Source: Candidatus Giovannonibacteria bacterium
GTDB taxonomy: Bacteria > Patescibacteriota > Minisyncoccia > JACPKW01 > UBA11713
Assembly: GCA_016186825.1 (NCBI GenBank)
Contig: JACPKW010000004.1
Coordinates: 64,428-128,427 of the forward strand
Direction of reading: 5' to 3'
Length of the DNA: 64,000 nt
This document shows, piece by piece, positions 442-45,005 of the stretch. Position 1 is the stretch's first letter; every line of letters starts with the position of its first letter. The notes under the pieces are model-generated. The model saw only the letters and a list, made by a program, of their open reading frames with translations, was not told the DNA's origin and searched no databases. The translations under genes and the position numbers were made by a program.

Positions 442-512
442 GCCAGCGTAGTTCAACGGCAGAACGGAGGACTCATAAGCCTTTAATAGAGGTTCAACTC
501 CTCTCGCTGGCA
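442..512 (+). tRNA. tRNA with CAT anticodon (Met or lysidine-Ile)
   Basis: 7 bp acceptor stem GCCAGCG/CGCTGGC, D-stem GTTC/GAAC, anticodon loop CTCATAA, T-arm AGAGG-TTCAACT-CCTCT, discriminator A; anticodon stem has an A/G mismatch at 31-39; CCA not encoded. Confidence 0.6.
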
Positions 513-588
513 CATACTTTCGGAAATTGGGCGCCCCGTTAGAAAATTTACTTAGCGCCGAATATTCGTTGGTATGGTTTTATAACCT

Positions 589-663
589 GGGCGCGTAGTG
601 TAGCCTGGTTAACACGCCTCCCTGTCACGGAGGAGATCACCGGTTCAAATCCGGCCGCGCCCG
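589..663 (+). tRNA. tRNA-Asp (GTC)
   Basis: Acceptor GGGCGCG/CGCGCCC, D-stem GTGT/ACAC, anticodon stem CCTCC/GGAGG with loop CTGTCAC, T-loop TTCAAAT, discriminator G. Confidence 0.85.
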
Positions 664-908
664 CTAGTTTTAGTATCGAGAGACCGAGGGGCCTCAAAAA
701 ACAGGATTATGGAACTACAAGAATTTATTAAAACAACTCTTATTAGCATTCGAAATGGAGTGCATTTAGCCAACGAAGAATTATTGAAAAACAAAGAAGG
801 AAATCGTATTTATGGACTGCGGTCTCCTAATGAATCTTAGGGCTAATGCCCGCTTTTTCGTTTGATTCTGATTTACGCGACTTTCGGATATAATTAATTA
901 ATCCAATC

Positions 909-5229: not shown

Positions 5230-6375
5230 TCATCTTAATTCGGATGCGAATTGCTTTGATGTTTCACGGTAAATTTCAGACTGAATTTTATCGATTTCTT
5301 CGTTAGTGAGTGTGCGCTCATTCGAGCGGTAAACTATTCTATACGTGTAGCTTGTCTTATCTGCTCCGAATTTTTCAGCGTTTTCGTATTTATCCAAAAG
5401 CGAAACTTCTTCCACTAAATCTCCGCCGAGATCTCTTATTAAGTCGAAATAATTGTTTGGGATGAAGGTGTTTGAAACAATGAATGAGATATCGCGAGTT
5501 ATTGGCGGAAACTTTGAAACTTCTTTGAATTTATTTCCGAGCTTCAGTTGTTTTTTTACCCGCTCGTCTTTTGACCAAAGCAGGCGAATGTCGGGCAGAT
5601 CCATCGAGAGCATAGCGAGACGTTCCAAGCCGAAGCCGAAGGCCCAGCCGGTCCATTTCTCTGGATCAACACCACATTTTTTTAAAACTCTGCCTTTTAC
5701 TACCCCGCAACCATTTCCTTCTATCCATTTATCACCGACTTTGATTTCCATTTCCAAGCTTGGGTCTGTGTAAGGGAAAGTATCTGGATTGAAGCGATAT
5801 TTGACATCGGGACCAAAAACAGCTTTTGCAATACTTCCTAGCACATCCTCTAAATCTCTTTGGCCTATGACTCGTTTGCTCTTAGGCGCCAAGAGCCAGC
5901 CATCAATCTGATGGAAGACATTCATGTGTTGGCGATCAATTTCGTCCTTGCGATAAACTTTGCCGAAAGAAAAGGAACCGACTATCTCCTCTCGCGCCAT
6001 TCTCTCTTTGATTTGTGGATCGTTGAGGTAGTAATACCACATGACAGTCGTGTGTGTGCGCAGGACATGCGCTTCACTCGCGTAATATGTGTCAGATTTC
6101 GAGCGCGCAGGATGATCAGCCGGAAAATCGAACAAATCAAAGCTTACATTCGCAGGAACGATTTCTGGAGCTTCGACAATATCGAAATCTTTAAAATCTT
6201 TAATATTGATTATTTTTCCAACCATATCGGCGAGAGGGGATCCCGGAGTTCTGGTCAAATCGGGCATATTTAAAAAACGCAGCATTCTTTTTGCATCCGC
6301 GTCCGATCTATTTTTGAGAGATTTCACTAACTCTTTTTCCTCGGGCGATTCTATTTTTATGTTCATAATTAACAA
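5230..6375 (-). CDS. pheS: phenylalanine--tRNA ligase, monomeric type (PheS catalytic core + C-terminal FDX-ACB anticodon-binding domain)
   Basis: FPADHPAR, LRTHTT, GWAFGFGLERLAML class II motifs; C-terminal ~100 aa (FPPITRDISFIV...ERTLTNEEI) resembles PheT-type FDX-ACB domain; table start is TTG, likely ATG near 6366. Confidence 0.8.
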   Translation of the reverse strand: MLIMNIKIESPEEKELVKSLKNRSDADAKRMLRFLNMPDLTRTPGSPLADMVGKIINIKDFKDFDIVEAPEIVPANVSFDLFDFPADHPARSKSDTYYASEAHVLRTHTTVMWYYYLNDPQIKERMAREEIVGSFSFGKVYRKDEIDRQHMNVFHQIDGWLLAPKSKRVIGQRDLEDVLGSIAKAVFGPDVKYRFNPDTFPYTDPSLEMEIKVGDKWIEGNGCGVVKGRVLKKCGVDPEKWTGWAFGFGLERLAMLSMDLPDIRLLWSKDERVKKQLKLGNKFKEVSKFPPITRDISFIVSNTFIPNNYFDLIRDLGGDLVEEVSLLDKYENAEKFGADKTSYTYRIVYRSNERTLTNEEIDKIQSEIYRETSKQFASELR

Positions 6376-6543
6376 TTAACAGAATTAAATTTTTTTTTCC
6401 AGTCTTTTTAGAAAAACCATTTATCCCGTTAGAAGTAATACCCGTCGTTTGCGGCGTGGGTTGCCCGTTGGGTCTAACACCCGCAGGGATTCAAATACCC
6501 CGCGGGAATTTCTAACGGGATTCATTTTTAATATAGCACCTGA

Positions 6544-6557
6544 TATGATATATCATA
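6544..6557. promoter_or_regulatory. 14 bp perfect palindrome TATGATATATCATA overlapping regulator start codon (candidate operator)
   Basis: Self-complementary; same core recurs at 7031-7044 and 26561-26574. Confidence 0.5.
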
Positions 6558-6973
6558 CAATGCCGCATGTATCGAAAAGAAAGTTGAAAAAGAAAGTATA
6601 TTCAAAAATTGAGACTAATTTTATTGAAGTGTTTCTTAAATTTCGGTCAAGAAAAGAAACATCTTTATTGTTGAACGATCTTCTGACACGAACTGAAAGA
6701 GTGATGCTCTCAAAGAGAATAGCAATAGTTTTAATGTTGGAAAGTGGATACTCGTTTAGTACGATTGAGCGGACTCTGAAAGTGACAAAACAAACGATTG
6801 TGAGATTCATGAAAATGAGAAAATCTGGGAAATTTAGATACTTGGAGGCTAAAAAGGAAAGTAAGGAAAACGATAGTCTGATCGAATTTTTAGAGAAATT
6901 TCTTCAAGCGGGCCTTCCGCCGCGAGGAAAAGGGAGATGGGCCAGGTTTTATAAAATGGCGAATGATGAATAA
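6545..6973 (+). CDS. TrpR/YerC/YecD-family HTH transcriptional regulator
   Basis: LLTRTERVMLSKRIAIVLMLESGYSFSTIERTLKVTKQTIVR matches TrpR_YerC HTH; table ORF starts at 6449 but that N-terminal extension spans a structured inverted-repeat region; start 6545 (or 6560) overlaps a 14 bp palindrome. Confidence 0.55.
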   Translation: MIYHTMPHVSKRKLKKKVYSKIETNFIEVFLKFRSRKETSLLLNDLLTRTERVMLSKRIAIVLMLESGYSFSTIERTLKVTKQTIVRFMKMRKSGKFRYLEAKKESKENDSLIEFLEKFLQAGLPPRGKGRWARFYKMANDE

Positions 6974-7196: not shown

Positions 7197-9296
7197 ATGG
7201 CCAAAAAAACAGTAAAAATTAAAACCGCCGGCAACGGGGGGAAGGGGGAATCCGTTAATAACCATTCTAACAACTACACCGCGAAAGACATTTATGTTCT
7301 CGAGGGTCTTGAGCCTGTTCGGAAGCGTCCCGGGATGTATATCGGCTCCACCGGGGTTGATGGTCTGCATCACTTGATTTGGGAAGTTTTTGACAACTCG
7401 CTCGATGAGGCGATGGCGGGATATGCCAAAAATATTTTAGTGACTTTGCTTCCGGGAAATAAAGTGCGGGTAGTGGATGATGGACGCGGAATTCCGGTTG
7501 AAACGCATAAACAGACTAAGAAATCAGCTCTTGAGACTGTGATGACGACATTACACGCCGGCGGAAAATTCGGAGGCGAATCTTATAAAGTTTCAGGTGG
7601 TTTGCACGGCGTCGGCGTTTCCGTTGTAAACGCTCTTTCGAAATCTCTAATAGCTGAAGTTTGCCGCGATGGGGAGCGTTGGCAGCAGGAATACGAACGC
7701 GGGAATCCTAAATCCAAAGTAAAAAAAACCGGCTCATGCAAAGGCACTGGAACTGCCATCACGTTCGAACCAGATTCGGAAATTTTTCGAGACATCCGTT
7801 TTAATTGGGATACGATTCTTGAACATTTGCGACAGCAAGCTTATTTGACGGCAGGGGTCCGGATTCAGATCCGCGATGAACGTGAAAAGGAAGAACATTT
7901 GCATAAGTCCTACGCTTTTTGCTTTGAGTCCGGAATAAAATCTTATGTAAAATTTTTAAACCGCAGTCAGAAAAACAAAAACGAAAGTATTTTTTATGCA
8001 TCCAAAGAAACAAACGGCATTTTTGTGGAAGTCGCGCTTCAATATATTGATGACCTGACTGCGCGCGAACTTGCATTTGCAAACAATATTTATAATCAGG
8101 AGGGCGGATCGCATCTCACCGGATTTAGGACCGCTTTGACGCGCGTATTGAATGATTACGCGAGGAAGAACGGATATTTAAAAGATAAAGACGGTTTGAC
8201 GGGTGAAGATGTGCGCGAAGGTTTGACAGCGGTGATTGCAGTTAAAATTGTAAACTCGCAGCTGCAGTTTGAAGGTCAGACAAAATCCAAATTGGGAAAT
8301 CCCGAAGCGAGGGGAGCGGTGGAGAGCGTATTCGGGGAAGCTTTTTCTGCTTTCCTTGAAGAAAATCCGTCCGAGGCGCGCGCTATTTTGGAAAAAGTGA
8401 TTTTGGCGCTCGAGGCGCGCAAAGCCGCGAAAGCCGCAAAAGATACGGTTTTACGAAAAGGAGTTTTGGATGGGCTGACTTTGCCCGGGAAGCTCGCCGA
8501 TTGCCAGTCGCGAAAAGCGGAGGAGTCGGAGATATTCATAGTTGAGGGCGATTCCGCAGGCGGGAGCGCGAAACAGGCAAGGGATCGGAGAACGCAGGCG
8601 ATTTTGCCTTTGCGCGGAAAAATTTTGAATGTGGAGCGCGCGCGTTTGGATAAAATGCTCGCGTCAAAAGAAATTAAGGCATTAATCATAGCGCTTGGAG
8701 CGGCAATCGCAGAAGAACTGGATGTCTCAAAAATCCGCTATCACAAAATAGTTATCATGACTGATGCTGATGTTGACGGCGCTCACATCAGAACTCTTCT
8801 ATTAACTTTGTTTTACAGATACTATCTGCCCGTGATCGAAATGGGTTACTTATACATTGCCCAGCCTCCTTTATATCGCATTTCAAAAGGAAAGGACGTC
8901 AGATATGCCTATTTGGAGGATGAAAAAGAAAAAATAATTAAGGAGCTTGTAAAAATCGCGGAAGCTAAAACCAAAAAAGGAAAGGAAGAAAAAGAAGAGA
9001 ACGAAAATCCGGAAGTTCAGGAAATTGAAACCGAAGGGGAAAATCCGCCAGCCGGAGGACTGCCAGCCGGCGGACGCGGTGTTTCCATTCAGAGATATAA
9101 GGGCCTCGGAGAAATGAATGCGGAACAGCTTTGGGAGACGACAATGGATCCGGGAAAGCGCGTTTTGAAACAGGTTACAATCGAAGATGCGGCGGAAGCT
9201 TCTAAAACTTTCGATATTTTGATGGGCGATGAAGTCGCGCCTCGCAAACTATTTATACAAACACACGCGAGAGCGGTGCAGAATCTGGATATTTAA
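7197..9296 (+). CDS. gyrB: DNA gyrase subunit B
   Basis: GHKL ATPase motifs (GLHHLIWEVFDNSLDEA), Toprim EGDSAGGSAKQARDR, PLRGKILNVE; acidic/Gly-rich insert near C-terminus. Confidence 0.95.
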   Translation: MAKKTVKIKTAGNGGKGESVNNHSNNYTAKDIYVLEGLEPVRKRPGMYIGSTGVDGLHHLIWEVFDNSLDEAMAGYAKNILVTLLPGNKVRVVDDGRGIPVETHKQTKKSALETVMTTLHAGGKFGGESYKVSGGLHGVGVSVVNALSKSLIAEVCRDGERWQQEYERGNPKSKVKKTGSCKGTGTAITFEPDSEIFRDIRFNWDTILEHLRQQAYLTAGVRIQIRDEREKEEHLHKSYAFCFESGIKSYVKFLNRSQKNKNESIFYASKETNGIFVEVALQYIDDLTARELAFANNIYNQEGGSHLTGFRTALTRVLNDYARKNGYLKDKDGLTGEDVREGLTAVIAVKIVNSQLQFEGQTKSKLGNPEARGAVESVFGEAFSAFLEENPSEARAILEKVILALEARKAAKAAKDTVLRKGVLDGLTLPGKLADCQSRKAEESEIFIVEGDSAGGSAKQARDRRTQAILPLRGKILNVERARLDKMLASKEIKALIIALGAAIAEELDVSKIRYHKIVIMTDADVDGAHIRTLLLTLFYRYYLPVIEMGYLYIAQPPLYRISKGKDVRYAYLEDEKEKIIKELVKIAEAKTKKGKEEKEENENPEVQEIETEGENPPAGGLPAGGRGVSIQRYKGLGEMNAEQLWETTMDPGKRVLKQVTIEDAAEASKTFDILMGDEVAPRKLFIQTHARAVQNLDI

Positions 9297-10197: not shown

Positions 10198-10743
10198 ATG
10201 GCAAAGCAAACTGGAGAATTCGGGCGGAATTGGTATGCGGTGCATACTTATTCAGGATATGAAGACGCAGTTGCAAGAAACTTGCGGCAAAGAATTGAAT
10301 CATTGGGAATGGAAGACAAAATTTTCAATGTTTTAGTTCCGATTGAGAAGAAAATAAAAATCAAAGCAGGCAAAAGGCGCACGGTTGAAGAAAAAATTTA
10401 TCCCGGGTACGTGCTTGTAGAAATGGTTGTGACTGACGATTCATGGTATGTTGTTCGAAACACTCCGCGCGTGACCGGATTTGTTGGTTCAGGCACTACT
10501 CCGACGCCACTTTCTAGAGAAGAAGTTGACAGCCTGCTCGGCAAAATGAAATCGGAAGAGCCGAAATTCAAATTCGATGTTTCGATCGGCGATACCGTCA
10601 GAATTATTGACGGTCCATTCAAAGAATTCGAGGGGCGCGTTAACGACGTGGATGAAGCGCGCGGCAAGGTTAAAGTTCTTGTTTCGATGTTCGGACGCGA
10701 AACGCCTGTTGAACTTGATTTTTTGCAGGTAAAAAAGCTATAA
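10198..10743 (+). CDS. nusG: transcription termination/antitermination factor NusG
   Basis: NGN domain ([12 protein letters not shown]) and KOW motif ([16 protein letters not shown]). Confidence 0.9.
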
Positions 10744-10750
10744 ACAATTT

Positions 10751-11176
10751 ATGGCAAAACCGGTTAAAACAATTTTGAAATTACAATTACCAGCCGGAAA
10801 AGCGACGGCGGCTCCGCCAGTGGGGACCGCGCTCGGACCGCATGGAATTAATATCGGTGAGTTTGTTAAGAAATTTAACGCCGAGACCGCGCCGATGGGG
10901 GATTCAATTATTCCTGCCGAAATTACGATCTATGAAGACCGCAGTTTTACATTTGTACTAAAAACTTCTCCAGCGTCTGACCTTTTGAGAAAAGCGGCTG
11001 GCATTGAGAAAGGATCCGGCGATCCCTTGAAAACGAAAGTTGGAAAAGTAACGCGGGCGCAAATCCGTGAAATTGCCGAGAAAAAAATGGAGGACTTGAA
11101 TGCAAACGATGTTGATGCCGCGATGAAAATCGTCGAAGGTTCCGCCCGTTCGATGGGAATTGAAGTAACGAATTAA
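10751..11176 (+). CDS. rplK: 50S ribosomal protein L11
   Basis: [22 protein letters not shown] conserved L11 N-terminal domain. Confidence 0.95.
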
Positions 11177-13220: not shown

Positions 13221-14912
13221 ATGAACAATTCAAGATATCAGCCGGATTTCCGTCCGGATGAATGGTCTGATGAAGATAGGCGGCTTTTATATCCTTTTGT
13301 GACAAACCTCGACGGGCTCGTCACGGTGTTACGAAATATGCCCCCGGAAATGGTGGGTGCGCTCTGTTCGAGAGCAAGCCGGGCAAACGGGTATTTGCTT
13401 CGAGTTTTGCTCGACGAATATCTTTACCCAGTGTTGCGGGGCGAAAACAAAGCTGAAGCAGCGGAGCTCGAAGCCGTGATCGATTTTTATCACAAACATG
13501 GCGTAACGTCGGCGCTTAACAGTGACCGTGCCCGAAAGTTTTATGCAAGAAATCACGCAGGGTATGGTGACGAGTCGGTGGCGCAGATGACGGGGACGCA
13601 TTTCGTCCTGTGGGGAGTTTCGCAAGTTGCGATGAAGCTACTTGAAGATTCCCGTATCGGCGCGGCTCCGCAGGAAAAATCAACCAGAATGGTTGACTTT
13701 ACAAAGAAGGTTCAGGGCAAGTACTTGTATTACACCGACCCGGATATTGTTCAAGCGAGACTCGGGGACGAATACAAGCTCGTCAATGATCGTCTTTTCG
13801 CGAGGAACGCCGAAATGGTAGATCTGCTTAAGGACAGGTTCGCGAAAAAGTTTCCGGACGTGCCGAAGTCGGTGATCGAAAAAAAGGCATTCGATACGGC
13901 GCGCGGTTTTTTGCCGATGTCCACGCTTGGACAGGTTGCTTTTGATGTAAATGGCCAGGCGGCGGAATACATGATTAACAAGTATCGAAAGCACGGCCTC
14001 GGCGAAATGCGTTGGATAACCGAGGCTCTCGAGAGAGAGCTTGATTGCGAAATCCCGTCTCTGCTTTACCGACTCAAAGAAACTGATCCGGGCCGTCTCC
14101 AGAAACTTGAGGATTATCAGATGTATCTCGCGACGAGAATATCGCGGATTGAGCCATTGGCGCGTGAACTTTTCGATAAATATCAGCTCCCTTGGCGCGG
14201 TCGGCCGACTTCAACGGTCAAGCTCGTCGATAATGATGTTTACGGGGAAGTGAACATTATCGCTGGGATTCTTTTCCCCGCGAGTGAGCAGTCGCTCCAA
14301 AATCTTATTGTGGCTGTTCGCTCCATGACTCCGGAGGAGCGGTGCCGGATTCTTCTGAAATACGTTGAAGGCAGGACCGAGCGCTGGCAGAAAGTCGGAA
14401 GGGCTTTTGAAAACGCCTTCGTAACCTACGAGATTTTGGTAAACGGGGGCGCTTACCGCGATATCCACCGCCATCGTCTACTTACTCAAGAACGCCAGTA
14501 TTTTACTACACAGTTGGGATATGACGTGCCTGTCGAAATTGCCGAGCTTAGGCTTGCTGAGCTGGTCCATCAAGCCATGGAGTGGATGGAAACGCTTTGG
14601 CAAAAAGTTGCAAACGAGCTGGACCGGGAGCATGCTCAATACTGCTCGACTCTCTTCCATCGCGTGCGATTTTACCAAAAAGAAAACCTGCGCGAAGCTT
14701 TCTGGGAAATAGAACTTCGGACAAAACCGGACGGTCACCCGGATTATCGAAAGATTGAGCAGGAAAAATATCGCCTGCTCAAGGAAGCTTATCCGGGAAT
14801 CGCAAAGTTCATGCTGGCGGACTTAAACGAGTATGACTTCGCGAGACGCGGCATGGAGGAGCGCGCTGCAGGGAAGATCGAAAGGCTTGAAAAGCTCCTT
14901 GGAAAGAAGTGA
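13221..14912 (+). CDS. ThyX-like (flavin-dependent thymidylate synthase family) protein, long 563 aa form, divergent
   Basis: N-terminal PEMVGALCSRASRAN and C-terminal half with RDIHRHRLLTQERQYFT resemble the ThyX fold and RHR motif, but the canonical Ser of RHRx7S is not evident; operon context dcd-tmk-mazG. Confidence 0.4.
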   Translation: MNNSRYQPDFRPDEWSDEDRRLLYPFVTNLDGLVTVLRNMPPEMVGALCSRASRANGYLLRVLLDEYLYPVLRGENKAEAAELEAVIDFYHKHGVTSALNSDRARKFYARNHAGYGDESVAQMTGTHFVLWGVSQVAMKLLEDSRIGAAPQEKSTRMVDFTKKVQGKYLYYTDPDIVQARLGDEYKLVNDRLFARNAEMVDLLKDRFAKKFPDVPKSVIEKKAFDTARGFLPMSTLGQVAFDVNGQAAEYMINKYRKHGLGEMRWITEALERELDCEIPSLLYRLKETDPGRLQKLEDYQMYLATRISRIEPLARELFDKYQLPWRGRPTSTVKLVDNDVYGEVNIIAGILFPASEQSLQNLIVAVRSMTPEERCRILLKYVEGRTERWQKVGRAFENAFVTYEILVNGGAYRDIHRHRLLTQERQYFTTQLGYDVPVEIAELRLAELVHQAMEWMETLWQKVANELDREHAQYCSTLFHRVRFYQKENLREAFWEIELRTKPDGHPDYRKIEQEKYRLLKEAYPGIAKFMLADLNEYDFARRGMEERAAGKIERLEKLLGKK

Positions 14913-28949: not shown

Positions 28950-31433
28950 ATGAAAATTAGACCTGCCATATTGGTTTTATTGCTTATATTTCTTTTTTCG
29001 TTAATAAATTTCCGCGAAAGCGATGCGGAAATTGTGCCAGAAGCTCCGAGGGTTTATCTGCAGACGAACTATAATCTTCCAAAAGGTAAAACCATTAATG
29101 TCCAAGCTGGCGGGGATTTGCAGTCGGCTTTGAATTCAGCCCTGCCGGGGGATGTTATTATTCTTCAAGCGGGCGCAACTTTTACGGGAAATTTTTTGCT
29201 CCCGAACAAATCCGGACCGGACTGGATTTACATTCAGTCTTCCGGACTTAACAATCTTCCGGAAGGAAAACGCGTGAACCCGACGCAGGCGAATTACATG
29301 GCAAAAATAGTCACTTCAAATACTGCGTCTGCCGTTTCCGCCTCATCCGGCGCCCATCATTACAGATTTTCCGGAATTGAAATTACGACTACTTGGGCGA
29401 GCACGAACGCGACAATGTATAATCTTGTTTCGCTCGATTCCGGATCCGATATTGTTTTCGATCGCGCCTACATTCATGGCACGCCTGGCGGAAATGTGCG
29501 CCGCGGGATTGCCCTCAACAACGCGCGGACTGCCGTGATCGATTCTTATTTTTCCGATTTTCACGAAGTTGGGATGGAAGCGCAAACCATTATGGGGTGG
29601 AGCGGCCAGGGTCCCTATAAAATAGTAAACAATTATTTAGAAGCGGCGGGTGAAAATTTGATGTTTGGCGGACAGGACCCTTGGATTTCTAATTTGGTTC
29701 CCGCGGACATAGAAATCCGCGGAAATTATTTTTATAAACCCATGAAATGGAAAATTGGAGATTCAAGTTATGCGGGAACTCACTGGACCGTGAAAAATAT
29801 TCTCGAATTAAAAAACGCCGAGCGCGTTTTGATTTCCGGAAATATTTTTGAAAACAACTGGCCAGACGCGCAAAATGGTTTTTCAATTTTACTCACGCCG
29901 CGAAACCAGAATGGCACCGCGCCCTGGTCGAAAGTGCGCGATGTTAATTTTTCCCATAATATTCTGAAAAACATTTACGCGGGAATAAATATTATGGGCC
30001 GGGACGATAATAATCCCAGCGGACAAACGGAACGGATCGCAATAAAAAGTAATATCTTTTCCGGAGTTTCAGGAACGCTTTTTCAGATTTTAGACGGACC
30101 TCGCGATGTTTCAATCGAGCATAATACGGGAATGCAAAGCGGAAATATTTTGCTCGCATCGGGAAGCGAGGCGGCCGGTTTTGTTTTCAAAGATAATATC
30201 GCGAATCATAATCAGTACGGCGTGATCGGAACCGGAATGGGAATTGGAAATCCGACTATCAGCCGGTATTTTCCGGGAAGCGTATTTATAAAAAATGCTC
30301 TGATTGGCGGAAGCGCCGGAAGTTATCCCGCAGAAAATTATTTCCCGTCGAATTCTGCCGCGATCGGCTTTGCCGACATGCCGAACGGGAATTACGCTCT
30401 TTTGAATTCGAGCACTTATAAATATATGGGATCGGACGGAAAAGACATTGGCGCGGATGCAAGCGAGGTAAATTCAAATACCCAGTGCATAATTTCCGGG
30501 TATTGTCCGACCATGACAGCCATTTTGGTTTCGAGTCCGGCCGCGCTTTCTTCTGATCCTTTGCCTTCTTCTCAGGCGAGCGCGGCTCTGCCACTGGCAA
30601 CGCAGACAACGTCGAGCTTTGTCCCTTCAGCTGCCTCTGTCGAAGGAATTACTTGGCGGGGCGCTTCGAATGTTTCAGCAAGTTCGGATTCAATTAAGAA
30701 AACTTCGGGATGCGATGGATGCCCTGATGCCGGAGCTTTTTCTGAAAATTCTCTTTCGGGTGATGGATATCTTGAATTTAAAGCGAGTGAAACAAATACA
30801 AATCGTCAGATAGGCCTCTCAAACGGAGATACCGATTTTTCAGGAAACGACATAGATTTTTCCTTTCAAATGCATCCGATTGTCTCGAATTATAATCTCG
30901 AGGTTCGCGAAAACGGCGAATATCGCGCAAACACTTCTTACAAAACAGGGGACTTATTAAAAATTTCAGTTGAAGCTGGAACGGTCAAGTATTACAAAAA
31001 TGGATCGCTTTTATACGGGAGCGCTAATAAGGCGCTGTTCCCGCTCATAATAGATACCTCCATCCTGAATTTGGGCGGAACGCTCGATAAAATTGTCTTG
31101 TCTAAAAGCGCGTTTGCTTCAAGCAAGCCCGCGGCTCCAAAGCCAGCGGCAGTTGAGTCCGGAGGGACAATTCAGCCGCCCGCAACCTCTGCGCGGCAAT
31201 TAATTTTGCCGGTGAAGCCCGCCGCTTTTTTTAAGATAGGTGACAGAGTTTACACCATGGCTTATCTCCGTGTCCGAAGAACCCCCTACGGCTTTACCAT
31301 CGGAATTCAAAAAATTAATTCGTATGGAAAAATTTTGGCCGGGCCTTCGGCTGTCGGAGGTTTGAAATGGTGGAAAGTTGATTATGATAAAGGCGTGGAC
31401 GGATGGTCTGCGGAGAAATGGCTTAAAAAATAG
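28950..31433 (+). CDS. secreted right-handed beta-helix repeat protein with lectin-like middle region and C-terminal SH3b-like domain
   Basis: Signal peptide; repeated N-x-x-G / NNIxxN beta-helix-like segments; C-terminal GDRVYTMAYLRVRRTPYG...GWSAEKWLKK resembles bacterial SH3. Confidence 0.5.
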   Translation: MKIRPAILVLLLIFLFSLINFRESDAEIVPEAPRVYLQTNYNLPKGKTINVQAGGDLQSALNSALPGDVIILQAGATFTGNFLLPNKSGPDWIYIQSSGLNNLPEGKRVNPTQANYMAKIVTSNTASAVSASSGAHHYRFSGIEITTTWASTNATMYNLVSLDSGSDIVFDRAYIHGTPGGNVRRGIALNNARTAVIDSYFSDFHEVGMEAQTIMGWSGQGPYKIVNNYLEAAGENLMFGGQDPWISNLVPADIEIRGNYFYKPMKWKIGDSSYAGTHWTVKNILELKNAERVLISGNIFENNWPDAQNGFSILLTPRNQNGTAPWSKVRDVNFSHNILKNIYAGINIMGRDDNNPSGQTERIAIKSNIFSGVSGTLFQILDGPRDVSIEHNTGMQSGNILLASGSEAAGFVFKDNIANHNQYGVIGTGMGIGNPTISRYFPGSVFIKNALIGGSAGSYPAENYFPSNSAAIGFADMPNGNYALLNSSTYKYMGSDGKDIGADASEVNSNTQCIISGYCPTMTAILVSSPAALSSDPLPSSQASAALPLATQTTSSFVPSAASVEGITWRGASNVSASSDSIKKTSGCDGCPDAGAFSENSLSGDGYLEFKASETNTNRQIGLSNGDTDFSGNDIDFSFQMHPIVSNYNLEVRENGEYRANTSYKTGDLLKISVEAGTVKYYKNGSLLYGSANKALFPLIIDTSILNLGGTLDKIVLSKSAFASSKPAAPKPAAVESGGTIQPPATSARQLILPVKPAAFFKIGDRVYTMAYLRVRRTPYGFTIGIQKINSYGKILAGPSAVGGLKWWKVDYDKGVDGWSAEKWLKK

Positions 31434-41162: not shown

Positions 41163-42788
41163 TTAATCAATTCTTTCTAGACAGTAAACCTCGTTTGCAT
41201 CCGTAGAGACAAAATATCTTTTTGTGTTTTCATTATAAACTACTTTTTGAGTAATTTTTTCAGTGACCTGGAAAACTCTTGTTGCTTTTCCAGTTTCCGG
41301 ATTGAATTCATATAAAGTTCCTCCATTAGAGCCCACATAAACATTTCCATCAATAATATTTGGGGTTGCTATAATTCTGCCACTCGTTGCAAACTGCCAT
41401 TTCATTTCTCCGGTTCTTAAATCAAAACAGTAAATATTTTTGTCTGTGGATGTAAAATAAACTTTGCTGTCTCTTACAACCGGACTCGAATAAATAATAT
41501 CTTCTGTTTTAAATTTTCCAATAACGTTTCCCGTATCAAGATCCAATGCATATTCGTTTTTATCAAATGAACCAAAGAGGAGAAGATTTGTTTCAATGTC
41601 GAATGCAAGGGAAGCTTTTATTTCGCCTCCTGTTTCATATTTCCAAAGAAGTGTTCCATTTTTCGCATTGAATAAATAAACTGTATTATCATTTCCTCCG
41701 ATCGCAACAATTTGTTTTTCTTTGCAATAAGCCGGTGAGCAGTGCACATATTCCGGCACTTTATAATCCCAAATTTTTTCTCCGGTATCCATCTTCAAAG
41801 CGGCGATTCCTCCCTTTCTTTTGAAAAGTCCAAACTCTAGTCCTATGAATACCAAATTTAAATCTGGCGCAAGAGCGGGCGATGAACCGATCCAGTCTGC
41901 TTCAGAATATTTCCAAATAATCTTTCCGTCTTTCGCATTCTGGCAGTAAAAATTACCATCGTAAGAGCCGAAATATATCATTTTTTTATTTATTGCAGGT
42001 GAAGAAAAGATACTTTTACCCATTGAAGGATAGCCAACTTTATATTTCCAAGCCACCGAACCGTCATTTTGATTTATGGCCCATAAAAATCCGTTATCAC
42101 TTCCGAAATAAATTTTTTCATTGTCCATGCACGGTGTTGATTTCGGTACAACGTGAAAAAGATTTGCATCAGGGGCCTGAAATTTCCACATAATTTTGAA
42201 TCTTTCTTGGGGAGTAAATCTTTTTTTAGGACTCATTGAAAGCCCGAAGTCTTTTAACGAGAAAAGATAGGTCAAATTAATATTTCTTTTTTTAATAAAA
42301 TCGAAATCATCATTTCCGCTGAAATTCATTATTGGAAAGATGCGGGAAACAATTTTTCCCGTTTCTTCTATAATCCGGATTTGACGCAGAAAAGTTGATC
42401 CGCTATTTATTATATCGTCAACTAAAATAATCGGCGTGTTATCCAATTCTCCTTCAATCAATTTTTGGAGTCCTATGCTTTTGCGAGCTTTTCTGATCAT
42501 AAAACCGTTTACTGGTTTGCCGATCTGATGGGAACGAAGAACAATGGCTCCAATTAACGGCACGGCGGCTAATTCTTGGCCTCCGACTTGAAATGGATAT
42601 TCTTTTTCAAATTTTTCCCAAAAAATATCAACGATTAAATCAAGCGCCTCGGGCTTTAAAAAAATATTTCTTAAATCAAACAGCCAATTTTCTCGTTCAC
42701 CAGTTGGAGAAATGATTATATGGGTTTTTGAAGTGGGAAGAGCGTCCCTTTTAATAATATTTTTAAGCTTTTCTAATTTTTGTTCCAC
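41163..42788 (-). CDS. fusion protein: orotate-PRTase-like (type I phosphoribosyltransferase) N-domain + 8-bladed PQQ/BamB-like beta-propeller
   Basis: GKPVNGFMIRKARKSIG...PIILVDDIINSGST matches PyrE motifs; C-terminal repeated YFGSxDGxLxAxxxxDGxxxWKY blades; start overlaps SagB-like gene stop. Confidence 0.6.
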   Translation of the reverse strand: MEQKLEKLKNIIKRDALPTSKTHIIISPTGERENWLFDLRNIFLKPEALDLIVDIFWEKFEKEYPFQVGGQELAAVPLIGAIVLRSHQIGKPVNGFMIRKARKSIGLQKLIEGELDNTPIILVDDIINSGSTFLRQIRIIEETGKIVSRIFPIMNFSGNDDFDFIKKRNINLTYLFSLKDFGLSMSPKKRFTPQERFKIMWKFQAPDANLFHVVPKSTPCMDNEKIYFGSDNGFLWAINQNDGSVAWKYKVGYPSMGKSIFSSPAINKKMIYFGSYDGNFYCQNAKDGKIIWKYSEADWIGSSPALAPDLNLVFIGLEFGLFKRKGGIAALKMDTGEKIWDYKVPEYVHCSPAYCKEKQIVAIGGNDNTVYLFNAKNGTLLWKYETGGEIKASLAFDIETNLLLFGSFDKNEYALDLDTGNVIGKFKTEDIIYSSPVVRDSKVYFTSTDKNIYCFDLRTGEMKWQFATSGRIIATPNIIDGNVYVGSNGGTLYEFNPETGKATRVFQVTEKITQKVVYNENTKRYFVSTDANEVYCLERID

Positions 42789-42789
42789 T

Positions 42790-43536
42790 CTATTGTAATT
42801 TGCCTAAAACTGATAAGTGAACTGTTGATTCTTCTTCATTGTCAATATCCAGCATTAGTTCTATTTTTTCATTTGAATAGCCAGCTAAATGGCAGCACCC
42901 TATGTTCAAAGCCGAGCTGATAAGCGCAATATTTTGCATTAAATGCCCTGATTCATTTAAAACGATTTTATATCCGAAGTCTTTGTATTTGATAAAATTT
43001 CTGTCCCAAACTGACGTAAGGATAACAAAAAGAGCTGCGTCCTTTGACCATGGATAAAACATAGCTTCTTTAATAATTTTTATTCCTTCAGATTCAATCA
43101 GCTCTTCAAGCGCATGTTTTTTTACATTGTAGTGATAAATGCCTCTGTCTAAATCAGTTACATTTTGTGCTCCGATATAAATTTCTAAGGGGTATCGTGA
43201 CCCGCCTGAAGGATAGAATCTTTTTGATCCATTCCATTCCCCATTATCCGGAATTTTTCTGATTCCGCCCCCGAAATATAGAAGAGTCGAAAGTTCTTCA
43301 AATGTAATCGGTTTATTGCTGAATTCTCTTGTTGAATGGCGGTTTTTAAGGGCAGATTCTAAATTTCCAAGCTCTAAAAAATTCCATGATAAAGGAATCA
43401 AATTTAATCGAGGATATTCTTTGAAATACACTGTTTTCCAGGATTTCGGCCAAGTTTTCGGGTCGCTAGGCCCAGTCCCGGATTTAAATTTAAAATTTAT
43501 TTCTTTATGAAATAATTTTGAGAGAGCTCCAATCAT
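42790..43536 (-). CDS. SagB/McbC-type (nitroreductase-fold) dehydrogenase of azole RiPP pathways
   Basis: NRHSTREF and YPSGGSRYPLEIY motifs; 4 nt overlap with YcaO gene. Confidence 0.75.
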   Translation of the reverse strand: MIGALSKLFHKEINFKFKSGTGPSDPKTWPKSWKTVYFKEYPRLNLIPLSWNFLELGNLESALKNRHSTREFSNKPITFEELSTLLYFGGGIRKIPDNGEWNGSKRFYPSGGSRYPLEIYIGAQNVTDLDRGIYHYNVKKHALEELIESEGIKIIKEAMFYPWSKDAALFVILTSVWDRNFIKYKDFGYKIVLNESGHLMQNIALISSALNIGCCHLAGYSNEKIELMLDIDNEEESTVHLSVLGKLQ

Positions 43537-45005
43537 GGAAAAGGATGAGGTTCTTGATTTAATGTTAGCGCGGCTTTATATCCCATTTTTTCAGGGATTT
43601 CTTTCAGGCGTTTGCCTCCGAAATATGGGATTGACTCGTTTAAGTGCATTGGCTGGAGTTCAGAAATAATTACTTTTGCGCTAAAAATTCCAAGCTTTTC
43701 AATTTCAGGTGTAGTTATTTTAACATAACAAGCTTCATAATTTTTTTTGCTTAATTCATCTGATAGGATTTTTAATTTTTCCTTGAAATACTCTTGTGTT
43801 TCTCTCAACTCGAACATTCGTTTTTTCAGATCTATCTTCACTTTTTCTCCGCTAAATATGAATTCTATTTTGTTCAAATTTTCTGGCCTGGACCAATAAA
43901 TTAATCTTTCTTCTCGTCCTATTTGTTTTTCATTTATATCATTTTTGAATTTTCTTTTTAATGAATAACGAACTATTAATGCTTCTGACAACGAATCGAT
44001 TATTGCTTGCTTAAAGTCAAAATCAGCGCTCGCACCTACACAAAAAGCAGGGCCTAATCCTGTTCTATCGAGTATTACGGCGAGGTAGATATGAACGGGA
44101 AAATCGCTCGGGAGTCGAACTATGTATGGTTCGAGCCTATATCGCTGAAAGTTTTTAATTATTGCATTTATTTCCTCATCTTGAGCACTGACGTAATCTA
44201 GATCGACAACTTCGGGCGATAATTTATTTAAATAGGTGATCATAAATGCATCTCTTTCGATAACTTCCATAATTCCTTTCACTATAGCTTCAACCATGTT
44301 TCTACCCGAGGCTAACCCTGTTGTTATGCACCATCTAAGAAGCGGTTCTTTTCGATTTTGTGTCGGGCTTAATCTTTGATTTCTATAAGCAAAGTTGGAG
44401 CTTGCAAGCTGAAGAGGGCAATACATTTTTTCGTTGCCCTGAACTGAAAAAGCCTCGAGCCACCTAAGCTCTGTCTGAGTATTAAATTTGAGATTCGATA
44501 AATTACTTTTTTGCTCTTCCGAAAAACCGGCAAGTTTAAATATATTTAATGCCTTGCCTTTCAAATCTTCATAATTGCTTTCAACTGAATTTTTCAGCAA
44601 ATGGTCTGAACTGGACCAAAGTGATCGTTCAACTCCTTCTGCGGTCGCGCGCCATATCGCCTTCACTTCGTTATTGAATTCCACTCCTGTGCCTAATTTT
44701 ATATTGCTTTCTTTGTTGCTATTCACGTTGTAAATATATATGAAAGGTTCATCTGGATAACGTCTCCCCTTTTTTATATTTTCTATTATTCCCATTGACT
44801 GAAGTTGGTACAGAGTATCAATGGCAACCAGCATCTCTTGACTTTTGTCAGCTAAAGTATCAGGGATTTTAACTAAAAGTTCAGAGCCAAAATATTTTTC
44901 AAGGTTTTTTAATAAAAACTTGGGCCATATAGAGAAAATCCCACCCTTATTAGGTTTTTTTAGGAAATCTTCGGCTTTTTTAGTAATTTCAAGTTTTTTT
45001 CCCAT
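43533..45005 (-). CDS. ycaO: YcaO-domain cyclodehydratase (TOMM D protein) with C-terminal PxPxP motif
   Basis: TGLASGRNMVEAIVKGIMEVIERDAF YcaO signature; C-terminus ...QEPHPFP. Confidence 0.8.
   Translation of the reverse strand: MGKKLEITKKAEDFLKKPNKGGIFSIWPKFLLKNLEKYFGSELLVKIPDTLADKSQEMLVAIDTLYQLQSMGIIENIKKGRRYPDEPFIYIYNVNSNKESNIKLGTGVEFNNEVKAIWRATAEGVERSLWSSSDHLLKNSVESNYEDLKGKALNIFKLAGFSEEQKSNLSNLKFNTQTELRWLEAFSVQGNEKMYCPLQLASSNFAYRNQRLSPTQNRKEPLLRWCITTGLASGRNMVEAIVKGIMEVIERDAFMITYLNKLSPEVVDLDYVSAQDEEINAIIKNFQRYRLEPYIVRLPSDFPVHIYLAVILDRTGLGPAFCVGASADFDFKQAIIDSLSEALIVRYSLKRKFKNDINEKQIGREERLIYWSRPENLNKIEFIFSGEKVKIDLKKRMFELRETQEYFKEKLKILSDELSKKNYEACYVKITTPEIEKLGIFSAKVIISELQPMHLNESIPYFGGKRLKEIPEKMGYKAALTLNQEPHPFP

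What the first reader, a model, noticed from the sequence alone, without database searches (positions are those of the whole stretch)
5230..6375. Monomeric, mitochondrial-type phenylalanyl-tRNA synthetase
The single 378 aa protein combines a PheS-type class II catalytic core (FPADHPAR, LRTHTT, GFGLERLAML) with a C-terminal ~100 aa FDX-ACB-like anticodon-binding domain that is normally found at the end of PheT. The long N-terminal coiled coil of bacterial PheS is missing. This is the architecture of organellar PheRS. In bacteria PheRS is normally an (alpha beta)2 heterotetramer, so this points to a streamlined single-subunit enzyme. It may explain the absence of pheT in small genomes.
Basis: partly seen in the sequence, partly recalled or inferred. 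Interest (0 to 1): 0.55.

Follow-up and report, generated by a model that had tools for sequence, protein, structure and literature searches.

The report
Single-chain bacterial phenylalanyl-tRNA synthetase, mitochondrial type
A candidate-phyla-radiation bacterium (Giovannonibacteria) encodes a 378-residue, single-chain phenylalanyl-tRNA synthetase built like the mitochondrial enzyme, a form that textbooks treat as found only in organelles; it is conserved across hundreds of related bacterial species.

Summary
Window 5233-6366 (minus strand) encodes a 378-aa protein with a PheS-type class II core (PF01409, E 5e-55) fused to a C-terminal FDX-ACB anticodon-binding domain (PF03147, E 9e-24). It has no PheS N-terminal coiled coil. 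The best solved match by sequence and by predicted fold is human mitochondrial PheRS (E 1e-60; TM 0.78-0.79).

It is identical to a 'hypothetical protein' of a Candidatus Giovannonibacteria MAG. It belongs to a tight clade (64-73% identity) found in at least 560 Patescibacteria species genomes. The gene sits in a conserved gyrB-nusG-rplK neighbourhood and evolves as slowly as those genes. All PheRS pocket and catalytic residues are about 100% conserved in 200 clade members.

The sister family, NCBIfam's 'mystery ligase SrmL', is also Patescibacterial. It has a remodelled pocket and lies beside radical-SAM genes in the three contexts where such genes were seen.

Most likely this is the organism's housekeeping, editing-free, monomeric PheRS. 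Absence of pheT from the genome could not be tested. Some Paceibacteria do carry pheST. In 15 of 80 related loci, a stand-alone gene for the PheT B2 domain precedes the gene. I found no publication describing this.

The parts
5230..6366 (-). Gene for the 378-aa single-chain PheRS-like protein (coding 5233-6366, stop 5230-5232; an alternative TTG start lies at 6375)
   Evidence: ORF listing. 100% identity and coverage to a 378-aa NCBI protein. Coordinates verified by translation.
6238..6366 (-). N-terminal 43 residues: two short helices (8-18, 23-33) that stand in place of the roughly 85-residue coiled coil of bacterial PheS
   Evidence: Predicted secondary structure. No PF02912 hit, and the TIGR00468 match starts at profile position 72. 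The segment is conserved within the CPR clade (R30, P35, L37 invariant).
5548..6237 (-). Class II PheS-type catalytic core (residues 44-273)
   Evidence: PF01409, E 5.3e-55. Fold matches to PheS alpha subunits with TM about 0.83 on the target.
6103..6117 (-). DHPAR (residues 84-88), equivalent to E. coli HHPAR 148-152
   Evidence: H85, P86 and R88 are 100% conserved in 200 CPR-clade sequences. In SrmL, H85 is N or S.
6046..6063 (-). LRTHTT (residues 102-107), equivalent to E. coli LRTQTS 166-171 and, from memory, T. thermophilus LRTHTS
   Evidence: R103 100%, H105 98%, T106 100%.
5899..5958 (-). Motif 2 region VYRKDEIDRQHMNVFHQIDG (residues 137-156), with the motif-2 arginine R139 and the FHQxDG stretch
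   Evidence: R139, D141, H147, F151, H152 and D155 are 100% conserved, Q153 and G156 98%. SrmL has P at 151 and I/V at 156.
5758..5778 (-). FPYTDPS (residues 197-203), the Phe-pocket wall. It equals E. coli F248-P-F-T251-E-P-S254, so T200 corresponds to E. coli T251
   Evidence: F197, P198, T200 and S203 are 100% conserved; position 199 is Y in 92% and F in 8%. SrmL has H at 197 and G at 203.
5611..5649 (-). Motif 3 GWAFGFGLERLAM (residues 240-252). A242 corresponds to E. coli A294 (pocket floor), and R249 is the motif-3 arginine
   Evidence: G240, W241, A242, F243, G244 and R249 are 100% conserved. SrmL has L at 241 and M/L at 243.
5233..5517 (-). C-terminal ferredoxin-fold anticodon-binding domain (FDX-ACB, equivalent to domain B8 of PheT), residues 284-378
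   Evidence: PF03147, E 8.9e-24, profile positions 1-94 of 94. It aligns to the C-terminus of TIGR00472 pheT_bact (positions 692-798 of 798) and to PheT chains in the PDB.
6449..6973 (+). Divergently transcribed 174-aa neighbour with a Trp-repressor-like domain. It is context only; no link to the synthetase is shown
   Evidence: PF01371, E 4e-9. It was not recovered as a conserved neighbour in the 80 related loci.
7197..9296 (+). gyrB, the conserved syntenic neighbour of the synthetase gene
   Evidence: Pfam DNA_gyraseB, Toprim and HATPase_c. An orthologue lies in the same locus as the synthetase gene in 55 of 80 related loci.
10198..11176 (+). nusG and rplK (L11), which belong to the same conserved housekeeping block
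   Evidence: Pfam NusG/KOW and Ribosomal_L11. Present in 34 and 32 of the 80 loci respectively.

Best explanation
This gene most likely encodes the housekeeping phenylalanyl-tRNA synthetase of this Giovannonibacterium, working as a single polypeptide in the way mitochondrial PheRS does. The PheS-type class II core would bind Phe and ATP, form Phe-AMP, and transfer Phe to A76 of tRNA-Phe. The fused C-terminal FDX-ACB domain would read the GAA anticodon. By analogy with human mtPheRS, the enzyme would swing from a closed resting state, in which the FDX-ACB domain is packed on the core, to an open tRNA-bound state. It has no B3/B4 editing domain, so Tyr-tRNA-Phe could not be proofread in cis.

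Shown here: the domain architecture, the fold, conservation of the active-site residues, wide vertical conservation in Paceibacteria and in genetic-code-25 CPR bacteria (UGA read as glycine), housekeeping synteny, and clear separation from the SrmL paralogue family.

Inferred: monomeric state, Phe specificity, the domain motion, and that it is the only PheRS in the cell.
For: (1) Architecture: PF01409 plus PF03147 in one 378-aa chain, with no PF02912.

(2) The closest solved relatives are human mitochondrial PheRS over both domains (E 2.6e-60). The AF2 model (pLDDT 94, pTM 0.90) superposes on closed-state 3cmq/5mgh over 388-390 columns (TM 0.78-0.79, rmsd 3.1-3.5 A).

(3) Active site: in 200 clade members the residues equivalent to the PheRS pocket and catalytic residues are 98-100% conserved. 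These are H85, R88, R103, H105, R139, F151, Q153, D155, G156, F197, P198, T200 (= E. coli T251), S203, G219, A242 (= E. coli A294), F243 and R249.

(4) Distribution: at least 560 GTDB species genomes, all of the best 80 being Patescibacteria (Giovannoni-, Yanofsky-, Doudna-, Nomura- and Brennerbacteria and others) at 64-73% identity. More than 7,000 database relatives have E <= 1e-5. The whole Parcubacteria group appears to collapse into very few 50%-identity clusters: the best representative hit is 59% identical and the next full-length ones are 50% or less.

(5) Housekeeping behaviour: gyrB lies in the same locus in 55 of 80 loci, and nusG/rplK in 32-34. Median identity is 68%, against 64% for GyrB, 69% for L11 and 72% for NusG in the same genome pairs.

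(6) Divergent members of the clade occur in CPR bacteria that use genetic code 25. The P0128 gene has 13 in-frame TGA codons, and 7 of the 9 that align fall on Gly.

(7) In 15 of 80 loci the gene is directly preceded, on the same strand, by a roughly 140-aa gene homologous only to the B2 tRNA-binding domain of PheT (E 1e-13 to 1e-22 against E. coli PheT residues 40-149; PF01588). This links the gene to PheRS function.

(8) No second PheS-like gene and no PheT-like gene lies in the window or in 1.27 Mb of related flanks.

(9) Precedent: mitochondrial PheRS is an active monomer of this architecture (PMC3275996).
Against: Absence of canonical pheS and pheT from this genome was not shown; only about 65 kb was readable. 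Canonical pheT (681 aa, no B2 domain) plus pheS exist in another Paceibacteria lineage (Minisyncoccus-type PMX_810_sub) and, by UniRef name, in Nealsonbacteria, so the phylum is heterogeneous.

The protein falls below the curated cut-offs of both TIGR00469 (250.9 < 258.35) and TIGR00468 (158.5 < 237.45). Its top-scoring NCBIfam model is the unexplained ligase SrmL.

A 50%-identical clade member (P0408) lies 5 kb from an SrmL gene across a radical-SAM cluster in a Nealsonbacteria contig, so some clade members could serve a specialised pathway.

Position 199 is Tyr where characterised PheRS enzymes have Phe (the FPF motif). No biochemical data exist.
Confidence: 0.75

Rival explanations
1. The protein is an accessory paralogue like SrmL. 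On this reading it is a PheS-derived ligase that activates an amino acid, possibly Phe or an analogue, for a specialised tRNA-dependent or radical-SAM-linked pathway, while a canonical (alpha-beta)2 PheRS encoded elsewhere does the housekeeping work.
For: The highest NCBIfam score is to NF051887 SrmL (259.3 bits). The CPR clade and SrmL are sister groups (bootstrap 82) and share Tyr at position 199. SrmL is itself Patescibacterial (Nealson- and Harrisonbacteria) and lies beside radical SAM/SPASM genes. In contig L095 a 380-aa member of the query's clade flanks that same cluster. Canonical pheST exists in some Paceibacteria.
Against: The score is below the SrmL cut-off of 300. At all eight pocket positions that distinguish SrmL (residues 85, 151, 156, 197, 203, 219, 241, 243) the query clade keeps the PheRS residue in 98-100% of 200 sequences. 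No radical-SAM gene or SrmL gene lies near the gene in the window or in any of the 80 related loci, each of which has only one PheS-like hit. Conservation and synteny match core informational genes, which is unlike a patchy accessory gene. No contig-length overlap was seen between carriers of the query family and carriers of SrmL in the listed hits.
Confidence: 0.13
2. The protein is the catalytic subunit of a still-heteromeric, reduced PheRS. On this reading it needs a partner encoded elsewhere in this genome, either the stand-alone B2 tRNA-binding protein or a truncated beta subunit, so 'monomeric' is wrong even though it is the housekeeping enzyme.
For: In 15 of 80 related loci a B2-only gene sits directly upstream on the same strand. 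That family has at least 2,519 members of 123-173 aa, which JGI labels 'beta chain', and it shares contigs with the synthetase (for example the 266,756-bp Doudnabacteria contig, where the locus tags are adjacent: P4L74_04855 and P4L74_04860).
Against: No B2 gene is found in the window or in the other 65 loci. The protein carries its own anticodon-binding domain. The predicted structure is a compact two-domain fold equal to the monomeric human enzyme. In canonical PheRS the B2 domain is, from memory, not needed for catalysis, and many CPR PheT proteins lack it (PMC5370408).
Confidence: 0.1
3. The gene is foreign DNA, either eukaryotic/organellar or viral contamination or a recent horizontal acquisition, and is not a native bacterial gene.
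For: The closest characterised relatives are mitochondrial. Compact relatives that pass the TIGR00469 cut-off occur on a 340-kb phage-like contig and in Yasminevirus.
Against: The gene is embedded among bacterial housekeeping genes (gyrB, nusG, rplK, rpoBC, secDF, recA), with the same neighbourhood in 55 of 80 related genomes. GC content is unremarkable (0.417 in the 4-kb block containing the gene, within the window's overall range of 0.35-0.49). The gene forms its own bacterial clade separate from the eukaryotic/viral sequences.
Confidence: 0.02

Closest known systems
Mitochondrial (organellar) monomeric PheRS: FARS2 / yeast MSF1, TIGR00469 pheS_mito, PDB 3cmq and 3tup
   Same: It has the same two-domain architecture (PheS core plus FDX-ACB, no coiled coil, no editing domain) and a similar size. 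There is whole-chain sequence similarity (E 1e-60, 32% identity in the structural alignment) and fold similarity (TM 0.78-0.79 to the closed state). It has the same pocket residues, including Thr at the pocket floor (T200, corresponding to human Thr235 as described in PMC3275996) and Ala at the position of E. coli A294.
   Different: It is bacterial, chromosomal and syntenic with gyrB. It scores 250.9 bits, just under the curated cut-off of 258.35. It lacks the roughly 25-residue insertion that splits the mitochondrial alignment into two stretches. It has instead a 43-residue N-terminal helical segment and a roughly 10-residue insertion (about residues 116-126, in the QIKERMAREEI stretch) that is shared with SrmL. 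Position 199 is Tyr rather than Phe, and position 155 is Asp rather than Glu. It forms a clade sister to the eukaryotic/viral sequences, not within them.
NCBIfam NF051887 'PheS-related mystery ligase SrmL'
   Same: It has the same architecture and length, occurs in the same phylum (Patescibacteria), and is the sister clade (bootstrap 82). It shares the insertion after the LRTHT motif and Tyr at position 199. The residues I take to be the ATP-binding and catalytic residues (R88, R103, R139, H147, H152, Q153, E216, R249) are conserved in both families.
   Different: The query scores 259 bits against a cut-off of 300, whereas true SrmL members score 402-442 bits. SrmL has a remodelled amino-acid pocket (H85 to N/S, F151 to P, G156 to I/V, F197 to H, S203 to G, G219 to E, W241 to L, F243 to M/L). 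It lies next to radical SAM/SPASM genes in three of the four SrmL contexts examined. The query family has none of these features. No publication on SrmL was found.
Canonical bacterial PheRS alpha subunit (PheS, TIGR00468) of the (alpha-beta)2 enzyme
   Same: The catalytic core is homologous (33% identity to E. coli PheS residues 108-327), and all three class II motifs and the Phe-pocket residues are conserved.
   Different: It has no N-terminal coiled coil and no adjacent pheT. It carries the anticodon-binding domain that normally ends PheT. It scores 158.5 bits against a cut-off of 237.45.

Membership tests
Mitochondrial-type monomeric PheRS (TIGR00469 / FARS2-MSF1 type) | PheS-type class II catalytic core | tested here: met
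   PF01409, E 5.3e-55, residues 44-273.
Mitochondrial-type monomeric PheRS (TIGR00469 / FARS2-MSF1 type) | FDX-ACB (B8) anticodon-binding domain fused to the C-terminus of the same chain | tested here: met
   PF03147, E 8.9e-24, full profile, residues 284-378.
Mitochondrial-type monomeric PheRS (TIGR00469 / FARS2-MSF1 type) | No alpha-subunit N-terminal coiled coil, and no B1-B7 domains (hence no editing domain) | tested here: met
   No PF02912, PF03483, PF03484 or PF17759 hits. The chain is 378 aa in total.
Mitochondrial-type monomeric PheRS (TIGR00469 / FARS2-MSF1 type) | Whole-chain fold equal to solved mtPheRS | tested here: met
   AF2 pLDDT 94. Foldseek ranks 1-6 are human mtPheRS, TM 0.78-0.79 over 388-390 columns.
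Mitochondrial-type monomeric PheRS (TIGR00469 / FARS2-MSF1 type) | Score at or above the curated equivalog cut-off of TIGR00469 | tested here: not met
   250.9 bits against 258.35. A clade member, P0121, passes with 264.3 bits.
Mitochondrial-type monomeric PheRS (TIGR00469 / FARS2-MSF1 type) | Orthology with eukaryotic organellar PheRS (falls inside that clade) | tested here: not met
   NJ trees place it in a bacterial clade with SrmL (bootstrap 82), sister to the eukaryotic plus viral clade (bootstrap 66). The trees used a single outgroup and a distance method only.
Mitochondrial-type monomeric PheRS (TIGR00469 / FARS2-MSF1 type) | Active as a monomer that charges tRNA-Phe with Phe | not testable with these tools
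   Supported indirectly only, by 98-100% conservation of the PheRS pocket and catalytic residues in 200 sequences.
SrmL (NCBIfam NF051887) | Score at or above the curated cut-off (300 bits) | tested here: not met
   259.3 bits. True members score 402-442 bits.
SrmL (NCBIfam NF051887) | SrmL-specific pocket residues (H197, G203, E219, P151, I/V156, L241, M/L243, N/S85) | tested here: not met
   The query and 98-100% of 200 clade members have F197, S203, G219, F151, G156, W241, F243 and H85.
SrmL (NCBIfam NF051887) | Membership of the SrmL clade | tested here: not met
   SrmL is monophyletic at bootstrap 100 and excludes the query.
SrmL (NCBIfam NF051887) | Neighbourhood with radical SAM/SPASM genes (seen here in three of the four SrmL contexts examined; not a published criterion) | tested here: not met
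   None in the window around the gene, and no such conserved neighbour in the 80 loci.
Canonical bacterial PheS alpha subunit (TIGR00468) | Score at or above the curated cut-off, with the N-terminal coiled-coil domain | tested here: not met
   158.5 bits against 237.45. The match covers profile positions 72-321 only, and there is no PF02912 hit.
Canonical bacterial PheS alpha subunit (TIGR00468) | Partner pheT gene, usually adjacent | tested here: inconclusive
   No PheT-like ORF apart from FDX-ACB and B2 matches in the 64-kb window or in 80 related loci. The rest of the genome was not readable.

The most novel reading that the evidence does not exclude
A large part of the Candidate Phyla Radiation (many Paceibacteria orders plus the CPR lineages that use genetic code 25) has completely replaced the universal bacterial (alpha-beta)2 PheRS. 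The replacement is a roughly 380-residue, editing-free monomer, in some lineages assisted by a free-standing B2 tRNA-binding protein. This bacterial clade is the sister or the source of mitochondrial PheRS. The alpha-core/B8 fusion would therefore have arisen in bacteria, and eukaryotes would have obtained their organellar PheRS by transfer from a CPR-like lineage rather than inventing it after endosymbiosis. SrmL would be a later neofunctionalised offshoot of the same enzyme.
Probability: 0.3. Interest if true: 0.8.

Novelty: new variant of a known kind. Interest (0 to 1): 0.62.

Why it matters
Reviews of PheRS state that the heterotetramer is conserved 'in all known species' of prokaryotes. 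They also state that the mitochondrial enzyme is the only monomeric class II synthetase and the smallest aaRS (PMC3275996).

A bacterial clade of hundreds of species that carries this form, probably as its only PheRS, would have four consequences. First, it would overturn that generalisation. Second, it would give a free-living-lineage model for how translation tolerates loss of Tyr-tRNA-Phe editing. Third, it would make the unresolved origin of mitochondrial PheRS testable with a bacterial sister group. Fourth, it exposes an annotation problem. NCBI calls the protein 'hypothetical' and JGI calls it 'alpha chain'. JGI calls the 140-aa B2 protein 'beta chain', so KEGG-style reconstructions will report a normal PheST pair where there may be none. 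Marker sets that include pheT or the B5 domain would then underestimate the completeness of these genomes.

The SrmL sister family, with its radical-SAM neighbours, is a separate lead for tRNA-dependent chemistry in CPR bacteria.

Tried and rejected
(1) Genome-level search for pheT.
Only Logan contigs of 13 kb or less were returned.
- One walk that used a cluster look-up to obtain a protein id reached the S10-spc ribosomal operon of a Nealsonbacteria contig. No pheT followed S19 there. The S19-pheT adjacency in PMX_810_sub is therefore not conserved.

(2) I could not obtain a Paceibacteria PheT seed sequence. E. coli PheT would only retrieve enterobacterial relatives in the top-120 lists, so no name-based survey of PheT in Giovannoni-, Yanofsky- or Doudnabacteria was possible.

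(3) Literature. Ten searches found no paper on a bacterial monomeric PheRS, on SrmL, or on pheT in CPR bacteria. One apparent hit (PMC13622651) concerned only a pheS counter-selection marker. The supplements of PMC5220378 and PMC12239599 had no PheRS entries.

(4) I checked whether long fusion proteins among the relatives (P0143, P0147, P0259, P0206, P0194) carry an editing domain. They do not. Their extra parts are an AlaRS core, TACO1/YebC, a methyltransferase, or unknown sequence.

(5) The idea that SrmL is a defence gene, prompted by a reverse-transcriptase/PLD context in L005, was dropped. Three other SrmL contexts showed radical SAM/SPASM genes instead.

(6) The promoter/terminator scan around the gene found nothing above shuffled expectation. 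Rfam found no leader or T-box.

(7) tRNA-Phe was not found in the window or in the 27 related loci scanned, so identity elements could not be examined.
Full report
**What is there**

Window 5230..6375 holds one long ORF on the minus strand. Read from the ATG at 6366 it encodes 378 aa. This form is 100% identical over its full length to NCBI 'hypothetical protein HYW53_01705 [Candidatus Giovannonibacteria bacterium]', which lies on a 256,829-bp contig.

Pfam gives two domains: tRNA-synt_2d (PF01409) at residues 44-273 (E 5.3e-55), and FDX-ACB (PF03147) at residues 284-378 covering the entire profile (E 8.9e-24). The PheS N-terminal domain is absent. The TIGR00468 alignment begins at profile position 72 of 324, and the predicted structure shows two short helices (8-18, 23-33) ahead of the core. 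The gene is on the minus strand.

**Context**

The window is Patescibacterial housekeeping DNA. It contains tRNA-Met and tRNA-Asp; DUF192, FemAB and a P-type ATPase; and the synthetase gene. It then contains a TrpR-like small gene, gyrB, nusG, rplK, dcd, tmk, secDF, rpoB, rpoC and recA, ftsK and pyrG. No PheT-like or second PheS-like ORF exists in the 64 kb. Rfam finds only the two tRNAs.

**Closest characterised relatives**

By sequence, the best PDB matches are human mitochondrial PheRS (8p8x, 3cmq and others; E 2.6e-60 to 2.7e-58), covering both domains. Bacterial PheS chains match only the core (E 1e-40 or weaker), and PheT chains match only the last roughly 95 residues.

An AlphaFold2 model built on a 71-sequence alignment is very confident (mean pLDDT 94, pTM 0.90). 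Foldseek ranks six human mtPheRS entries first, with TM 0.78-0.79 and rmsd 3.1-3.5 A over 388-390 columns. The open, tRNA-bound form 3tup scores lower (TM 0.59) because of its different domain arrangement. The model therefore resembles the closed resting state of the monomeric enzyme.

**Curated families**

NCBIfam places the protein between families and above no cut-off:

| Model | Score (bits) | Cut-off |
|---|---|---|
| NF051887 'PheS-related mystery ligase SrmL' | 259.3 | 300 |
| TIGR00469 pheS_mito | 250.9 | 258.35 |
| TIGR00468 pheS | 158.5 | 237.45 |

This explains the 'hypothetical protein' label at NCBI. JGI calls relatives 'phenylalanyl-tRNA synthetase alpha chain'.

**Family structure**

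An exhaustive HMMER search of 1.84 billion cluster representatives found only 274 clusters at E <= 1e-30. Distance trees rooted on E. coli PheS resolve two groups.

- A bacterial group (bootstrap 82) made of two clades.
  - The first is the query's clade (bootstrap 62; its Parcubacteria core has bootstrap 100). It includes P0121, an Oligoflexia-labelled MAG protein (P0125), and P0124/P0128.
  - The second is SrmL (bootstrap 100), whose members score 402-442 bits on NF051887.
- A group of sequences that pass TIGR00469 (bootstrap 66). It includes eukaryotes such as Vitrella. Relatives of this kind also occur in the giant virus Yasminevirus (not itself tested against TIGR00469) and on a 340-kb phage-like contig.

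The P0128 gene contains 13 in-frame TGA codons. Seven of the nine that can be aligned fall on Gly of the query, including invariant glycines. Its host therefore uses genetic code 25 (UGA read as glycine), which, from my own knowledge, points to Gracilibacteria or Absconditabacteria. The clade thus reaches beyond Parcubacteria.

**Is it a PheRS or an SrmL-like 'mystery' ligase?**

I aligned 200 members of the query clade (80 from GTDB genomes, 119 database homologues, and the query) with 118 SrmL sequences. E. coli numbering was checked directly: T251 is the T of FPFTEPS, and A294 is the A of GFAFG.

Every position that lines the Phe pocket or performs catalysis in characterised PheRS is 98-100% conserved in the query clade. 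These positions are H85/P86/R88 (DHPAR), R103/H105/T106 (LRTHT), R139 (motif 2), F151-H-Q153-x-D155-G156, F197-P198-x-T200 (= Ec T251), S203, G219, W241-A242 (= Ec A294)-F243-G244, and R249 (motif 3). The one clade-specific change is Tyr at position 199 (92% Tyr, 8% Phe), where PheRS normally has the second Phe of FPF.

SrmL keeps the residues I take to be the ATP-binding and catalytic residues but is systematically different at eight pocket positions: H85 to N/S, F151 to P, G156 to I/V, F197 to H, S203 to G, G219 to E, W241 to L, and F243 to M/L. SrmL therefore looks like a ligase retargeted to another substrate, whereas the query clade looks like a true PheRS.

SrmL also turned out to be Patescibacterial (Nealsonbacteria, Harrisonbacteria). 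It lies next to radical SAM/SPASM genes in three contexts. In the two that share one gene layout, an archaeal-type LysRS gene is also adjacent. In one Nealsonbacteria contig, an SrmL gene and a 380-aa member of the query's clade (50% identical to the query, with PheRS-type motifs) flank three radical-SAM genes. That is the best evidence for the rival reading.

**Housekeeping signature**

The best 80 are all Patescibacteria, at 64-73% identity. They include Giovannoni-, Yanofsky-, Doudna-, Nomura- and Brennerbacteria, Spechtbacterales and Paceibacterota.

Across those 80 loci, gyrB lies in the same locus in 55, and nusG and rplK in 34 and 32. tRNA-Met/tRNA-Asp genes recur nearby. Median identity to the window's proteins is 68% for the synthetase, against 64% for GyrB, 69% for L11 and 72% for NusG. 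Each locus has exactly one PheS-like gene, and none of the 80 has an SrmL gene or a conserved radical-SAM neighbour. This pattern is that of a vertically inherited, strongly constrained core gene.

**The pheT question**

phmmer searches with E. coli PheT and PheS over all ORFs of the window and the 80 loci (1.3 Mb) found no canonical PheS or PheT. If every genome had one pheST locus at a random position, only about 1.6 hits would be expected, so the absence is not significant.

The search did reveal something unexpected. In 15 of 80 loci (the four named loci are Doudnabacteria; the others carry generic or placeholder labels), a roughly 140-aa ORF lies directly upstream on the same strand. It matches only residues 40-149 of E. 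coli PheT, the B2 OB-fold tRNA-binding domain (E 1e-13 to 1e-22; PF01588). This stand-alone family has at least 2,519 members, all 123-173 aa among the 120 listed. JGI labels many of them 'phenylalanyl-tRNA synthetase beta chain'. The family shares contigs with the synthetase; for example, the locus tags P4L74_04855 and P4L74_04860 are adjacent on the 266,756-bp Doudnabacteria contig. It is absent from the window and from the other 65 loci.

On the other side, the annotated genome of a Minisyncoccus-type Paceibacterium (PMX_810_sub) has a canonical pheT (681 aa: B3/4, CLM, B5 and FDX-ACB, with no B2) next to pheS. Its best UniRef hit is a Nealsonbacteria PheT (supplement of PMC10936435). Mukai et al. 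noted that many CPR PheRS-beta proteins lack B2 (PMC5370408). Parcubacteria are therefore heterogeneous. Whether this Giovannonibacterium lacks pheST remains untested. I could read only about 1.5 kb beyond the window, and further walking was blocked.

**Most likely mechanism**

By homology with mtPheRS (PMC3275996), the core would make Phe-AMP and transfer Phe to tRNA-Phe. The fused FDX-ACB domain would bind the anticodon after a closed-to-open domain rotation. There is no B3/B4 domain, so there is no cis editing of Tyr-tRNA-Phe. The conserved Tyr199 and Thr200 in the pocket may matter for discrimination against Tyr in the absence of editing; this is inference. In some lineages a free B2 protein may add tRNA affinity in trans; this is also inference.

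I put 0.75 on 'housekeeping single-chain PheRS', 0.13 on 'accessory SrmL-like paralogue with pheST elsewhere', 0.10 on 'still needs a partner subunit', and 0.02 on foreign or contaminant DNA.

**Novelty**

The kind of enzyme, a monomeric alpha-core plus B8 PheRS, is known from mitochondria. The review literature describes the heterotetramer as conserved in all prokaryotes and the monomer as exclusively mitochondrial. Ten full-text searches found no description of a bacterial counterpart or of SrmL. The sequences have, however, been public since about 2016, and domain databases implicitly show the architecture.

I rate it a new variant of a known kind. It is a separate bacterial clade, sister to the organellar one, and it fails the curated organellar cut-off by 7 bits. 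The tree topology, with bacterial and organellar/viral clades reciprocally monophyletic, leaves the direction of any transfer open. It rests on one outgroup and a distance method, so the 'origin of mtPheRS' reading is only a hypothesis (probability about 0.3 for the full chain).

Noticed in passing
L020:9357-9899, L052:304-732, L031, L063, L036, L081, L070, L032, L043, L088, L038, L037, L049, L041, L078 (each directly upstream of the synthetase gene): A stand-alone gene of about 140 aa is homologous only to the B2 (tRNA_bind, PF01588) domain of PheT. It lies on the same strand immediately before the single-chain PheRS gene in 15 of 80 related loci. The family has at least 2,519 members, which JGI annotates as 'phenylalanyl-tRNA synthetase beta chain'. 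It is not present in the window.
   Followed up: partly
L092-L094 (SrmL at L093:6319-7437) and L095/L096 (SrmL at L095:10001-11107; paralogue at L095:16152-17294): NCBIfam's 'mystery ligase' SrmL is itself a Patescibacterial protein (Nealson- and Harrisonbacteria). It sits beside 2-3 radical SAM/SPASM genes, and in one gene layout also beside an archaeal-type LysRS and an AlaDH-like gene. In one Nealsonbacteria contig, SrmL and a PheRS-type paralogue (50% identical to the query) flank the radical-SAM genes. A different SrmL context (L005) instead has a reverse transcriptase and a PLD-like gene.
   Followed up: partly
L089:8001-9047 (340,874-bp ENA contig); P0225: A compact 348-aa PheRS of the mitochondrial type, which passes the TIGR00469 cut-off, is encoded on a 340-kb phage-like contig (SNF2 helicase, phage metallopeptidase, PcfJ). 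A related PheRS is found in Yasminevirus. Viruses with large genomes therefore carry this single-chain synthetase.
   Followed up: no
L006:9463-10833 and L007:154-1524: The P0128 member of the clade has 13 in-frame TGA codons. Seven of the nine that align correspond to Gly in the query, so its host uses genetic code 25. The database protein was translated with TGA as Trp, which gives spurious tryptophans.
   Followed up: yes
window 41163-45005 (minus strand), within the low-GC stretch at about 40-48 kb: A YcaO cyclodehydratase (43533-45005), a nitroreductase-family protein (42790-43536) and a 541-aa beta-propeller protein (41163-42788) lie in a region with GC 0.35-0.38, against about 0.45 elsewhere. 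This looks like an azoline/TOMM-type peptide-modification island, possibly acquired horizontally.
   Followed up: no
window 13221-14912: A 563-aa ORF in which the best-scoring ThyX (Thy1) stretch covers only residues 391-525. It has a long N-terminal region that was not examined further.
   Followed up: no
window 6449-6973: A 174-aa protein with a Trp-repressor-like domain (PF01371, E 4e-9) is transcribed divergently from the synthetase gene. It is not conserved at this position in related genomes.
   Followed up: partly
window 28950-31433, 52119-54491, 46668-48089, 45130-46269: Four large ORFs (827, 790, 473 and 379 aa) have no Pfam match at E <= 1e-5.
   Followed up: no
P0147, P0259, P0194 (cluster representatives, not in the window): Some relatives are fused to other modules: an AlaRS catalytic core (872 aa), TACO1/YebC (669 aa), and a SAM methyltransferase (761 aa). 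These may be eukaryotic gene models or gene-calling fusions.
   Followed up: no
window 442-664 and related loci (for example L009:12097-12325, L044:8397-9406): A tRNA-Met/tRNA-Asp pair recurs within a few kb of the synthetase gene across many Paceibacteria. It forms part of a conserved block with gyrB, nusG and rplK.
   Followed up: partly
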